A stretch of DNA of 64,000 nucleotides, taken from Giardia intestinalis (taxonomy: Eukaryota). The stretch lies in assembly GCA_000002435.2 (NCBI GenBank), contig CM018789.1, one strand, 5' to 3'. The notes beneath the pieces were generated by a model. It made no database searches. It was not told the origin of the DNA and worked only from the letters and a program-made list of their open reading frames with translations. Below are positions 44,901 to 47,847 of this stretch, in pieces. The translations under genes were made by a program, and so were the position numbers. Numbering within the stretch: the stretch's first letter is position 1; each line of letters begins with the position of its first letter.

Positions 44901-47847
44901 CGACGTATTGCGCTTTATCCTTGCATGTAAGACAGGTTTCCCCGCCGCTCAAGTCGCACGTCTCGCACCCGGCCCCTTCCAGCGTCGGGCACGCGTTGGC
45001 CTGTCCCTTGACGCACGCGTCGCCCTGGAGCTGGTAGCCATTACCATCGTCGCACTTGCAGGCCTTCGCCGAGCCGGCAGCCGGGTCTATTACCTCTTCC
45101 GGGGCAGTGCAGGCGGCCTTGCAGCTCTTCTTGTTGGCCGCGACGTATTGCGCTTTATCCTTGCATGTAAGACAGGTTTCCCCGCCGCTCAAGTCGCACG
45201 TCTCGCACCCGGCCCCTTCCAGCGTCGGGCACGCGTTGGCCTGTCCCTTGACGCACGCGTCGCCCTGGAGCTGGTAGCCATTACCATCGTCGCACTTGCA
45301 GGCCTTCGCCGAGCCGGCAGCCGGGTCTATTACCTCTTCCGGGGCAGTGCAGGCGGCCTTGCAGCTCTTCTTGTTGGCCGCGACGTATTGCGCTTTATCC
45401 TTGCATGTAAGACAGGTTTCCCCGCCGCTCAAGTCGCACGTCTCGCACCCGGCCCCTTCCAGCGTCGGGCACGCGTTGGCCTGTCCCTTGACGCACGCGT
45501 CGCCCTGGAGCTGGTAGCCATTACCATCGTCGCACTTGCAGGCCTTCGCCGAGCCGGCAGCCGGGTCTATTACCTCTTCCGGGGCAGTGCAGGCGGCCTT
45601 GCAGCTCTTCTTGTTGGCCGCGACGTATTGCGCTTTATCCTTGCATGTAAGACAGGTTTCCCCGCCGCTCAAGTCGCACGTCTCGCACCCGGCCCCTTCC
45701 AGCGTCGGGCACGCGTTGGCCTGTCCCTTGACGCACGCGTCGCCCTGGAGCTGGTAGCCATTACCATCGTCGCACTTGCAGGCCTTCGCCGAGCCGGCAG
45801 CCGGGTCTATTACCTCTTCCGGGGCAGTGCAGGCGGCCTTGCAGCTCTTCTTGTTGGCCGCGACGTATTGCGCTTTATCCTTGCATGTAAGACAGGTTTC
45901 CCCGCCGCTCAAGTCGCACGTCTCGCACCCGGCCCCTTCCAGCGTCGGGCACGCGTTGGCCTGTCCCTTGACGCACGCGTCGCCCTGGAGCTGGTAGCCA
46001 TTACCATCGTCGCACTTGCAGGCCTTCGCCGAGCCGGCAGCCGGGTCTATTACCTCTTCCGGGGCAGTGCAGGCGGCCTTGCAGCTCTTCTTGTTGGCCG
46101 CGACGTATTGCGCTTTATCCTTGCATGTAAGACAGGTTTCCCCGCCGCTCAAGTCGCACGTCTCGCACCCGGCCCCTTCCAGCGTCGGGCACGCGTTGGC
46201 CTGTCCCTTGACGCACGCGTCGCCCTGGAGCTGGTAGCCATTACCATCGTCGCACTTGCAGGCCTTCGCCGAGCCGGCAGCCGGGTCTATTACCTCTTCC
46301 GGGGCAGTGCAGGCGGCCTTGCAGCTCTTCTTGTTGGCCGCGACGTATTGCGCTTTATCCTTGCATGTAAGACAGGTTTCCCCGCCGCTCAAGTCGCACG
46401 TCTCGCACCCGGCCCCTTCCAGCGTCGGGCACGCGTTGGCCTGTCCCTTGACGCACGCGTCGCCCTGGAGCTGGTAGCCATTACCATCGTCGCACTTGCA
46501 GGCCTTCGCCGAGCCGGCAGCCGGGTCTATTACCTCTTCCGGGGCAGTGCAGGCGGCCTTGCAGCTCTTCTTGTTGGCCGCGACGTATTGCGCTTTATCC
46601 TTGCATGTAAGACAGGTTTCCCCGCCGCCGTCCGCCCCCCCCCCCCGGCCCGGCCTGTCCTGACAGGTCGCCACGGTCCTTCCATCGGCACCACCCGCCG
46701 GCCGGCACCTCTTCCCAGGGCCGGCTCCGGGCCGCGACGTATGCGCCGCTGTGCGCCCCCGCTCAGTCCACGCTTGGACGCACGCGTCGCCCTGGAGCTG
46801 GTAGCCATTACCATCGTCGCACTTGCAGGCCTTCGCCGAGCCGGCAGCCGGGTCTATTACCTCTTCCGGGGCAGTGCAGGCGGCCTTGCAGCTCTTCTTG
46901 TTGGCCGCGACGTATTGCGCTTTATCCTTGCATGTAAGACAGGTTTCCCCGCCGCTCAAGTCGCACGTCTCGCACCCGGCCCCTTCCAGCGTCGGGCACG
47001 CGTTGGCCTGTCCCTTGACGCACGCGTCGCCCTGGAGCTGGTAGCCATTACCATCGTCGCACTTGCAGGCCTTCGCCGAGCCGGCAGCCGGGTCTATTAC
47101 CTCTTCCGGGGCAGTGCAGGCGGCCTTGCAGCTCTTCTTGTTGGCCGCGACGTATTGCGCTTTATCCTTGCATGTAAGACAGGTTTCCCCGCCGCTCAAG
47201 TCGCACGTCTCGCACCCGGCCCCTTCCAGCGTCGGGCACGCGTTGGCCTGTCCCTTGACGCACGCGTCGCCCTGGAGCTGGTAGCCATTACCATCGTCGC
47301 ACTTGCAGGCCTTCGCCGAGCCGGCAGCCGGGTCTATTACCTCTTCCGGGGCAGTGCAGGCGGCCTTGCAGCTCTTCTTGTTGGCCGCGACGTATTGCGC
47401 TTTATCCTTGCATGTAAGACAGGTTTCCCCGCCGCTCAAGTCGCACGTCTCGCACCCGGCCCCTTCCAGCGTCGGGCACGCGTTGGCCTGTCCCTTGACG
47501 CACGCGTCGCCCTGGAGCTGGTAGCCATTACCATCGTCGCACTTGCAGGCCTTCGCCGAGCCGGCAGCCGGGTCTATTACCTCTTCCGGGGCAGTGCAGG
47601 CGGCCTTGCAGCTCTTCTTGTTGGCCGCGACGTATTGCGCTTTATCCTTGCATGTAAGACAGGTTTCCCCGCCGCTCAAGTCGCACGTCTCGCACCCGGC
47701 CCCTTCCAGCGTCGGGCACGCGTTGGCCTGTCCCTTGACGCACGCGTCGCCCTGGAGCTGGTAGCCATTACCATCGTCGCACTGCGCGGTCTTCTCGTTG
47801 TGCTTTGCCAGCACTGTTACACAAACTAGGAGAAATCCTACCAACAT
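41998..47847 (-). CDS. variant-specific surface protein (VSP) composed of ~23 tandem 80-aa CXXC-containing repeats
   Basis: The ORF-track start at 47868 is GTG. An in-frame TAA lies upstream, and the first ATG (47845-47847 on the complement strand) gives the signal peptide '[14 protein letters not shown]'. The mature protein starts directly with the repeat '[88 protein letters not shown]'. It ends '…[39 protein letters not shown]', the diagnostic VSP TM + CRGKA tail. Confidence 0.85.
42130..47790. repeat. tandem array, ~23 copies of a 240-bp unit (nucleotide-identical by eye), coding part of the VSP
   Basis: Sequence lines repeat exactly with period 240, e.g. 42301-42360 equals 42541-42600. 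Antisense 73-aa ORFs recur at 42176+240k for 18 copies, then at 46823, 47063, 47303 and 47543. One copy (unit starting about 46496) is aberrant. Confidence 0.9.

What the first reader, a model, noticed from the sequence alone, without database searches (positions are those of the whole stretch)
46629..46777. Single aberrant repeat copy: 62 nt replaced by 149 nt of ~75% GC sequence containing a C12 homopolymer, frame preserved (+87 nt = +29 codons)
In the unit beginning about 46496, the normal segment '…ccgctcaagtcgcacgtctcgcacccggccccttccagcgtcgggcacgcgttggcctgtcccttg…' is replaced. The replacement is '…ccgccgtccgcccccccccccc ggcccggcctgtcctgacaggtcgccacggtccttccatcggcaccacccgccggccggcacctcttcccagggccggctccgggccgcgacgtatgcgccgctgtgcgcccccgctcagtccacgcttg…'. 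It contains recognisable but scrambled fragments of the unit itself: 'ggcctgtcc…tgac', 'ccttcca…gcacc' and 'gccgcgacgtat-gcgc'. In protein this gives '[52 protein letters not shown]' instead of '[23 protein letters not shown]'. That removes four Cys and one CXXC motif. The C12 run (46635-46646) is a classic polymerase-slippage and sequencing-error site. The copy could be a real, recently mutated repeat or a consensus error from noisy reads in a collapsed array.
Basis: seen in the sequence. Interest (0 to 1): 0.5.

Follow-up and report, generated by a model that had tools for sequence, protein, structure and literature searches.

The report
Garbled repeat in Giardia surface-protein gene
One odd repeat copy in a Giardia surface-antigen gene is most likely a consensus error in the PacBio reference genome, not a real mutation, and it has passed into the RefSeq and UniProt protein records.

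Summary
In a 240-bp tandem array (42131-47783) with 23 copies identical to the base, one copy has 61 nt replaced by 148 nt (46629-46776). The change is +87 nt and stays in frame. The stretch is 78% GC and holds the only homopolymer of 9 nt or more in the window (C12).

The array is the body of a minus-strand Giardia intestinalis WB-C6 variant-specific surface protein. The gene is GL50803_0050391 (XP_037901615.1, 1949 aa) from the PacBio reference GCF_000002435.2. The deposited protein already contains the aberrant peptide.

The fragments are not scrambled. The 148 nt are a complete, in-register, deletion-only subsequence of the canonical 61+240 nt. They also contain the canonical 61 nt as a complete subsequence. 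Shuffled controls never reach either property.

This is what a single consensus forced through reads of two array lengths (23 vs 24 units) would look like. It is not what a mutated repeat would look like. The encoded 52 residues have no VSP character, and two of the three frames are open anyway.

Verdict: very probably a consensus artefact (about 0.78), and low interest except for curation. I could not inspect the reads, so this remains inference.

The parts
41998..47847 (-). Coding sequence of the Giardia intestinalis WB-C6 variant-specific surface protein GL50803_0050391 (KAE8301612.1 / XP_037901615.1 / UniRef100_A0A644EZQ7), 1949 aa including the aberrant unit
   Evidence: The translation is identical over all 1949 residues to database protein P0179, which lies on the 1,485,438-bp WB contig. 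The gene ID comes from the supplement of bioRxiv 10.1101/2022.03.07.483299.
47843..47849 (-). TAATGTT initiator motif around the ATG (ATG = 47847-47845)
   Evidence: Read directly from the sequence. It is listed as 'taatgtt' for this gene in the supplement, and the motif class is described in PMC2996952.
47806..47847 (-). Signal peptide [14 protein letters not shown]
   Evidence: Translation. The same signal peptide is listed for this gene in the supplement.
46777..47783 (-). N-terminal block of the array: 4.2 perfect 240-bp (80-aa) units
   Evidence: TRF reports 100% matches. Unit starts are at 46778, 47018, 47258 and 47498.
46629..46776 (-). Aberrant stretch: 148 nt in place of the canonical 61 nt. 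It is an in-register, deletion-only thinning of 61+240 canonical nt. It encodes [52 protein letters not shown].
   Evidence: Break points. LCS is 148/148 against the 301-nt canonical sequence; shuffles give 134.2 +/- 1.75, max 141 of 500. The canonical 61 nt are fully contained as a subsequence, 61/61; shuffles reach at most 59 of 1000, and 0 of 2000 random thinnings contain them. Colinear anchors.
46635..46646 (.). C12 homopolymer (G12 on the coding strand). It arises where the non-C bases of ...CGTCTCGCACCCGGCCCCTTCC... are missing.
   Evidence: It is the only homopolymer of 9 nt or more in the window. Alignment.
42131..46628 (-). C-terminal block of the array: 18.7 perfect 240-bp units
   Evidence: TRF reports 100% matches. 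There are 18 exact unit starts spaced 240 nt apart.
41998..42130 (-). Conserved VSP 3' region: [13 protein letters not shown], the transmembrane helix [25 protein letters not shown], the CRGKA tail and the stop codon
   Evidence: Translation. Pfam PF03302 (VSP) scores 69.7 bits against a cut-off of 31.4 over this region. The TM and CRGKA are listed in the supplement.
41967..41986 (-). Extended VSP polyadenylation motif TACTTAGATAGTAAACGCGT (AGTAAA = 41977-41972)
   Evidence: Read from the sequence. The same 20-mer is listed for GL50803_0050391 at positions 15-34 in supplementary table S6.

Best explanation
The aberrant copy is not real genomic sequence. It is a consensus artefact in the PacBio RS II (HGAP3/Quiver/PBJelly) reference assembly of Giardia intestinalis WB-C6, inside the perfect 240-bp array of the VSP gene GL50803_0050391.

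The most likely cause is that reads of two array lengths, 23.2 and 24.2 units, were forced into one consensus. The two lengths could come from different alleles of the tetraploid or from sub-populations of the culture. The consensus kept about half of the bases of the extra unit.

The result is a sequence that is both a subsequence of the longer version and a supersequence of the shorter one. The commonest base (C) was kept preferentially, which raises GC and produces the C12 run.

The frame is preserved by chance (1 in 3), so the annotation called the gene an intact VSP and the junk peptide entered RefSeq and UniProt.

Shown here: the anatomy, the sub/supersequence relations, the identity with the deposited protein, and the assembly method. 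Inferred: that the reads do not contain this sequence, and that two length classes exist.
For: 1. All 148 bases align, deletions only and in register, to the canonical 61+240 nt. The alignment z-score is 8.7 against shuffles. LCS is 148/148 against 134.2 +/- 1.75 (max 141) for 500 shuffles, and only reference phases 130-190 give 145 or more.
2. The canonical 61 nt are a complete subsequence of the 148 nt (61/61). None of 1000 shuffles reach this (max 59), and none of 2000 random thinnings of the long version contain it.
3. Exact anchors follow the unit's cyclic order, including the 13-mer GGCCGCGACGTAT from a part of the unit that lies outside the replaced 61 nt.
4. The other 23 units are 100% identical. 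Two other long repeat-VSPs of the same assembly have 26 and 16 units that are perfect at the protein level, with no odd internal unit.
5. Retention depends on the base: C 0.66, G 0.49, A 0.33, T 0.30. The C12 run is unique in 64 kb.
6. There is no sign of coding constraint. Two of three minus-strand frames are open through the stretch, the peptide has no CXXC and no Pfam match, and only weak low-complexity hits appear in 1.84 billion representatives.
7. The assembly was built from 11-15%-error CLR reads with HGAP3 and Quiver. Contigs were stitched on optical maps, gaps were closed with PBJelly, and only 85 indels were fixed from uniquely informative Illumina pile-ups. The authors themselves noted homopolymer frameshifts.
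8. Allelic repeat-number variation is documented for vspA6 and vspC5 (PMC2996952). Intra-isolate structural variants are enriched at VSP loci in WB (PMC7048089).
9. A toy simulation (noisy reads, MAFFT, plurality consensus) with long:short ratios of 17:13 or 18:12 gives a localised patch of about 220 nt with 57-77% of bases kept inside an otherwise clean array.
Against: I could not inspect any reads, so nothing here shows directly that the sequence is absent from the DNA.

Coverage was 200x with several Quiver rounds, which normally repairs simple draft errors. The artefact therefore needs a special situation, such as a length mixture, ambiguous mapping or a join.

The toy simulation reproduces the patch only in a narrow mixture range. 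At 50:50 the unit is dropped cleanly. Its base bias is much weaker than the one observed.

The frame is preserved. That is expected in 1 of 3 artefacts, but it is also what a tolerated real variant would show.

With a reference twice as long, an LCS of about 90% is reached by chance. The 'no substitutions' statement therefore rests on the excess over shuffles, not on the raw 100%.
Confidence: 0.78

Rival explanations
1. This is also an artefact, but of a different origin. There is only one true array length (24.2 units). The stretch is a low-quality contig end, a contig-to-contig merge or a PBJelly gap fill that Quiver could not repolish, because reads lying wholly inside a perfect array map ambiguously.
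For: The pipeline reduced 80 HGAP contigs to 38 by merging overlaps on optical maps and by PBJelly gap closing. The stretch is a deletion-only thinning of the longer canonical version. Short-read assemblies never cross this locus.
Against: Plain thinning of a single long version does not predict that the short canonical 61 nt survive as a complete subsequence (0 of 2000 random thinnings). The array (5.65 kb) is well below the read N50 of 12.7 kb, so spanning reads should have been plentiful.
Confidence: 0.25
2. It is a real sequence variant. At least one allele of GL50803_0050391 really carries a degenerate, Cys-poor, Gly/Arg/Pro-rich 109-aa unit. It arose by error-prone repair or slippage and is tolerated because it is in frame.
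For: The frame is preserved (+87 nt) and there is no stop codon. The sequence survived 200x Quiver polishing. Variant units do occur inside natural minisatellite-like arrays (general knowledge).
Against: About 50 scattered micro-deletions with no required substitution inside one unit, next to 23 identical units, matches no known mutational process. The sub/supersequence 'sandwich' has no biological rationale. Two of three frames are open, so the open frame is weak evidence. No VSP features are retained. Other repeat-VSPs of the assembly are clean.
Confidence: 0.12
3. It is a patch of foreign or paralogous sequence, either gene conversion from another VSP or an insertion of unrelated GC-rich DNA.
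For: GC is high (0.78) relative to the unit (0.64). VSP genes do recombine (PMC2996952).
Against: The stretch is colinear and in register with this gene's own unit. It encodes nothing VSP-like in the gene's frame. It has no other copy in the window and no significant protein relatives.
Confidence: 0.02

Closest known systems
vspC5 (vsp90) and vspA6 (CRP170, vsp67): tandem-repeat VSP genes of Giardia WB
   Same: The architecture matches that described in PMC2996952: a short unique 5' end (64 nt here; 66-99 bp there) with a signal peptide, then 20 or more near-identical tandem units. As in vspC5, the units run straight to the conserved 3' region with the TM and CRGKA. Repeat copy number is reported as allelically variable and as prone to assembly compression.
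   Different: The unit here is 240 bp (80 aa, 10 Cys), not 105 or 195 bp, and its sequence is different. The best other proteins are 65-76% identical. No 240-nt-repeat vsp appears in the 2010 catalogue built on the Sanger assembly. The gene became visible only in the PacBio assembly.
Other long repeat-VSPs of the same assembly (P0181, 1983 aa, 26 x 74 aa; P0180, 1602 aa, 16 x 74 aa)
   Same: They come from the same genome and assembly and have the same design. They share a similar N-terminus (MLxxxLLxCxTVLA) and an identical C-terminal tail.
   Different: Their arrays are perfect throughout at the protein level. Only GL50803_0050391 has a garbled internal unit.
Tandem-repeat-induced consensus and assembly errors in long-read genomes (reviewed in PMC6868369)
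   Same: The setting matches: error-prone, indel-rich long reads, homopolymer problems and repeat arrays, with errors propagating into protein databases.
   Different: The specific signature seen here is not described in the parts of that review I read. That signature is an intermediate-length patch that is a subsequence of the N+1-unit version and a supersequence of the N-unit version. My mechanism is an inference supported only by a toy simulation.

Membership tests
Giardia variant-specific surface protein (VSP, Pfam PF03302) | N-terminal signal peptide | tested here: met
   The N-terminus is the hydrophobic [14 protein letters not shown]. It is listed as the signal peptide for this gene in the supplement of 10.1101/2022.03.07.483299. 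No predictor was run here.
Giardia variant-specific surface protein (VSP, Pfam PF03302) | Cys-rich ectodomain (about 12% Cys) with many CXXC motifs | tested here: met
   There are 234 Cys in 1949 aa (12.0%) and 45 CXXC motifs.
Giardia variant-specific surface protein (VSP, Pfam PF03302) | C-terminal transmembrane helix followed by the invariant CRGKA tail | tested here: met
   The protein ends ...[30 protein letters not shown].
Giardia variant-specific surface protein (VSP, Pfam PF03302) | Match to the Pfam VSP profile above the gathering score | tested here: met
   PF03302 gives E = 2.9e-19 and 69.7 bits against a cut-off of 31.4, on a two-unit mini-version of the protein.
Giardia variant-specific surface protein (VSP, Pfam PF03302) | Initiator TAATGTT/CAATGTT at the ATG and the extended polyadenylation motif after the stop | tested here: met
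   TAATGTT lies at 47849-47843. TACTTAGATAGTAAACGCGT lies at 41986-41967.
Tandem-repeat VSP subclass (vspA6 / vspC5 type) | Short unique 5' segment, then many near-identical tandem units in frame | tested here: met
   There are 64 nt of unique 5' coding sequence, then 23 perfect 240-bp units plus the aberrant one.
Genuine variant repeat unit (real sequence polymorphism) | Support in independent reads or assemblies | not testable with these tools
   Short-read Logan contigs stop at 41760-41996 and at 51561/51813. No other annotated copy of this protein exists. The metagenome scan was empty. The peptide searches did not recover even the source protein, so they are uninformative.
Genuine variant repeat unit (real sequence polymorphism) | Divergence pattern of natural decay (substitutions plus a few indels) or a retained protein motif | tested here: not met
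   The relation to the canonical unit is deletion-only. The canonical Cys/CXXC pattern is lost, and two of three frames are open.
Consensus artefact from reads of two array lengths | The sequence is a subsequence of the longer version and a supersequence of the shorter version, in register | tested here: met
   148/148 and 61/61, both beyond all shuffles.
Consensus artefact from reads of two array lengths | Two length classes among spanning reads, and absence of the stretch from raw reads | not testable with these tools
   This needs the SRP191500 reads (named), which none of the tools can reach.

The most novel reading that the evidence does not exclude
The garbled unit is real in at least one of the four genome copies. 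In that case a Cys-poor, Gly/Arg/Pro-rich 52-residue spacer interrupts an otherwise perfect 24-unit antigenic array. It would have been produced by an unusual error-prone repair event within a VSP repeat, and it would give that allele a unique epitope.

A weaker and more likely version is that the patch is an artefact but marks genuine 23- vs 24-unit heterogeneity of this VSP within clonal WB-C6. I put that version at about 0.45, and it would be of low interest.
Probability: 0.12. Interest if true: 0.35.

Novelty: not a real feature. Interest (0 to 1): 0.15.

Why it matters
The gene is part of the RefSeq reference genome of the main Giardia laboratory strain. Its product (XP_037901615.1, UniRef100_A0A644EZQ7) is counted in curated VSP catalogues with this 52-residue junk segment included.

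If the verdict is right, the true protein is a clean array, either 2000 aa with 24 full units or 1920 aa with 23. The database entry would then mislead epitope, proteomic and Cys/CXXC statistics.

The sub/supersequence 'sandwich' test is a cheap, read-free way to flag such patches in other long-read assemblies. Biologically there is nothing new here. Repeat-bearing VSPs and their copy-number variability have been known since the 1990s.

Tried and rejected
- **Exact look-up of the VSP in the contig index.** It is not on record.
- **Neighbour-gene look-ups.** These returned only short-read Logan contigs that stop at the conserved VSP 3' end (41760-41996) and at 51561/51813. They say nothing about the array interior.
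- **Protein search with a mini-VSP.** It found only other VSPs at 76% identity or less. The canonical unit itself is not represented in short-read gene calls, so absence of the aberrant peptide there means nothing.
- **Word-index search with the 70-aa aberrant peptide.** It gave zero hits and did not find the source protein, so it is uninformative.
- **Exhaustive HMMER search with the same peptide.** It gave three weak low-complexity hits (28-37% identity) and again did not return the source protein. It is uninformative about read support.
- **JGI metagenome scan with the shared left-flank 29-mer.** It found no matches.
- **Literature searches by accession and locus tag.** They found nothing in main texts. 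The 2010 vsp catalogue has no 240-nt repeat gene. The Be-2/WB-C6 paper does not mention the gene.
- **Toy consensus simulation at 50:50.** The extra unit is removed cleanly, so the patch is not reproduced. A patch appears only near 57-60% long reads.
- **Foreign or paralogous insertion.** Rejected because the stretch is colinear with the gene's own unit.
- **Systematic artefact in all repeat-VSPs of the assembly.** Rejected because P0180 and P0181 are clean.
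Full report
**What is at the coordinates**

Tandem Repeats Finder reports a 240-bp array in two perfect blocks. One is 42131-46628 (18.7 copies) and the other is 46777-47783 (4.2 copies), both at 100% matches.

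Exact copies of the unit start every 240 nt except for one 567-nt step. Periodicity breaks at 46629 going forward and at 46776 going backward. So 148 nt replace 61 canonical nt (unit offsets 178-238), a net +87 nt.

The stretch is 78% GC, against 64% for the unit. It contains C12 at 46635-46646, the only homopolymer of 9 nt or more in the 64-kb window.

Two details are wrong:
- The replaced peptide has three Cys (one CXXC), not four, and the new peptide has two.
- The recognisable fragments are colinear, not scrambled.

**What the array belongs to**

The minus-strand ORF 41998-47847 encodes a 1949-aa protein. It has these features:
- a hydrophobic signal peptide;
- 23 identical 80-aa Cys-rich units;
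- a transmembrane helix and the tail CRGKA;
- 234 Cys (12%) and 45 CXXC motifs;
- a Pfam VSP (PF03302) match above threshold;
- the TAATGTT initiator at the ATG;
- the extended polyadenylation motif TACTTAGATAGTAAACGCGT after the stop.

This is a Giardia variant-specific surface protein of the tandem-repeat type, with the same architecture as vspC5 and vspA6 (PMC2996952).

The flanking genes are identical to proteins of G. intestinalis WB clone C6, in the order KAE8301609 to KAE8301614 on a 1,485,438-bp contig. They include cathepsin B GL50803_10217, GL50803_0010218, ankyrin repeat protein 1 and GL50803_00113616.

The VSP itself is identical, residue for residue and including the aberrant peptide at residue 357, to KAE8301612.1 / XP_037901615.1 / UniRef100_A0A644EZQ7. 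It is listed as GL50803_0050391 on NC_051856.1.

So the window is the PacBio reference assembly GCA/GCF_000002435.2. The odd unit is already in RefSeq, in UniProt and in a curated VSP catalogue.

**Anatomy of the aberrant stretch**

A global alignment against the in-register canonical continuation of 61+240 nt matches all 148 bases with deletions only (score z = 8.7 against shuffles).

The longest common subsequence is 148/148. For 500 shuffles it is 134.2 +/- 1.75 with a maximum of 141. Out-of-phase references give 129-140, and only phases 130-190 give 145 or more.

Exact anchors follow the unit's cyclic order:

| Window position | Anchor | Unit offset |
|---|---|---|
| 46644 | CCCGGCCC | 197 |
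| 46652 | GGCCTGTCC | 227 |
| 46701 | GCCGGCA | 62 |
| 46707 | ACCTCTTCC | 81 |
| 46730 | GGCCGCGACGTAT | 125 |
| 46759 | CCGCTCA | 174 |

The stretch is therefore a thinned copy of about 1.25 canonical units, with about half of the bases missing in roughly 50 small gaps.

Retention is base-dependent: C 0.66, G 0.49, A 0.33, T 0.30. This explains both the high GC and the C12 run. The run is what remains of CGTCTCGCACCCGGCCCCTTCC once the non-C bases are gone.

The shorter canonical version (61 nt) is also contained in the 148 nt as a complete subsequence (61/61). None of 1000 shuffles reach this (mean 54.8, max 59), and none of 2000 random thinnings of the long version contain it.

So the stretch sits exactly between a 23.2-unit array and a 24.2-unit array. 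It is a supersequence of the first and a subsequence of the second.

**Interpretation**

No known mutational process removes about 150 bases in about 50 pieces from one unit, without any required substitution, while 23 neighbouring units stay identical.

A single consensus forced through reads of two lengths would give exactly this sandwich. Every read can then be explained by pure insertions or pure deletions relative to the template.

The assembly was made from PacBio RS II CLR reads with HGAP3 and Quiver. Contigs were merged on optical maps and gaps were closed by PBJelly. Only 85 indels were corrected from Illumina pile-ups, and the authors noted homopolymer frameshifts (PMC7000408).

Two published observations fit a length mixture. 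Allelic repeat-number variation is documented for vspA6 and vspC5. Intra-isolate structural variants are enriched at VSP loci in WB (PMC7048089).

A toy simulation used noisy reads from N-unit and N+1-unit templates, MAFFT and a plurality consensus. At 50:50 it dropped the extra unit cleanly. At long:short ratios of 17:13 or 18:12 it gave a localised patch of about 220 nt with 57-77% retention inside an otherwise perfect array. This is qualitative support only. The range is narrow and the base bias is weaker than observed.

**Coding evidence**

The 52-residue replacement has no CXXC and no Pfam match. Its only database similarities are weak low-complexity hits.

Two of the three minus-strand frames are open through the stretch. 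The missing stop codon therefore carries little weight.

Frame preservation is a 1-in-3 event. A frame-breaking artefact would have been annotated as a pseudogene instead.

Two other long repeat-VSPs of the same assembly, with 26 and 16 perfect 74-aa units, have no odd internal unit. Perfect arrays are the norm in this assembly and this patch is an isolated accident.

**Independent data**

I could not obtain any independent data on the array interior:
- Short-read Logan assemblies of many runs carry the neighbours at 99.6-100% identity. They end at the conserved VSP 3' region (41760-41996) and at 51561/51813.
- No other annotated protein carries this unit.
- The 2010 catalogue based on the Sanger assembly has no 240-nt-repeat vsp.
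- A metagenome scan was empty.
- Two searches with the aberrant peptide failed to return even the source protein, so they are uninformative.

**Verdict**

The feature is most probably a consensus artefact (about 0.78). I favour a 23- vs 24-unit read mixture over a join or gap-fill defect.

A genuine variant unit remains possible (about 0.12) until the reads are checked. The decisive checks are simple: diagnostic k-mers in the Illumina reads of SRP191500, the length distribution of spanning PacBio reads, and a 327-bp MluI fragment from the amplified array.

Interest is low except as a curation note for GL50803_0050391 and as a cheap in-silico signature for such patches.

Noticed in passing
window 42268-47829 (+): There is a 1853-aa ORF on the strand opposite the VSP. 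It exists only because the 240-bp unit has no stop in that frame and the +87-nt patch keeps the frame. It is almost certainly not a gene.
   Followed up: partly
window 47869-51838: A 3.97-kb stretch upstream of the VSP is GC-rich (0.53-0.64). It has no ORF over 276 aa, no Pfam match and no second copy in the window. Short-read assemblies of many SRA runs all break at 51561 or 51813. This fits the 'gene-poor regions around VSPs' noted in PMC7000408, but I did not work out what the stretch is or why assemblies break there.
   Followed up: partly
window 41967-47742: Each 240-bp unit carries two MluI sites (ACGCGT), giving 47 sites in 5.8 kb and fragments of 216 and 24 bp. MluI is the enzyme used for the optical maps that scaffolded this assembly, so the map cannot have resolved or validated this array.
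   Followed up: no
P0003, P0011, P0012 (hits): Short proteins with the full VSP tail (…[12 protein letters not shown]) and a Pfam PF03302 match are named 'ATPase involved in DNA repair/chromosome segregation' or 'Permease' in NCBI and UniRef (sequence of P0003). These look like misannotations in a Giardia draft genome.
   Followed up: no
P0179 = window 41998-47847 (-): The precomputed Pfam field for the full-length protein is empty. Its C-terminal region nevertheless matches PF03302 well above threshold when a two-unit mini-version is scanned. The long repeat apparently suppresses the stored hit.
   Followed up: partly
window 53139-57254 (-): The window ORF is 1371 aa and matches many Logan gene calls exactly. 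The RefSeq model for this gene (GL50803_0016930, KAE8301614.1) is 1350 aa, presumably because a different start codon was chosen.
   Followed up: no
L002 (SRR13990249) 1804-6094: In this sample the 1430-aa ankyrin repeat protein 1 gene is called as three pieces of 917, 188 and 327 aa, and the AAA protein is also split. The locus is 99.97% identical to the window with 3 extra aligned columns. These are frameshifts, either real or assembly errors in that run.
   Followed up: no
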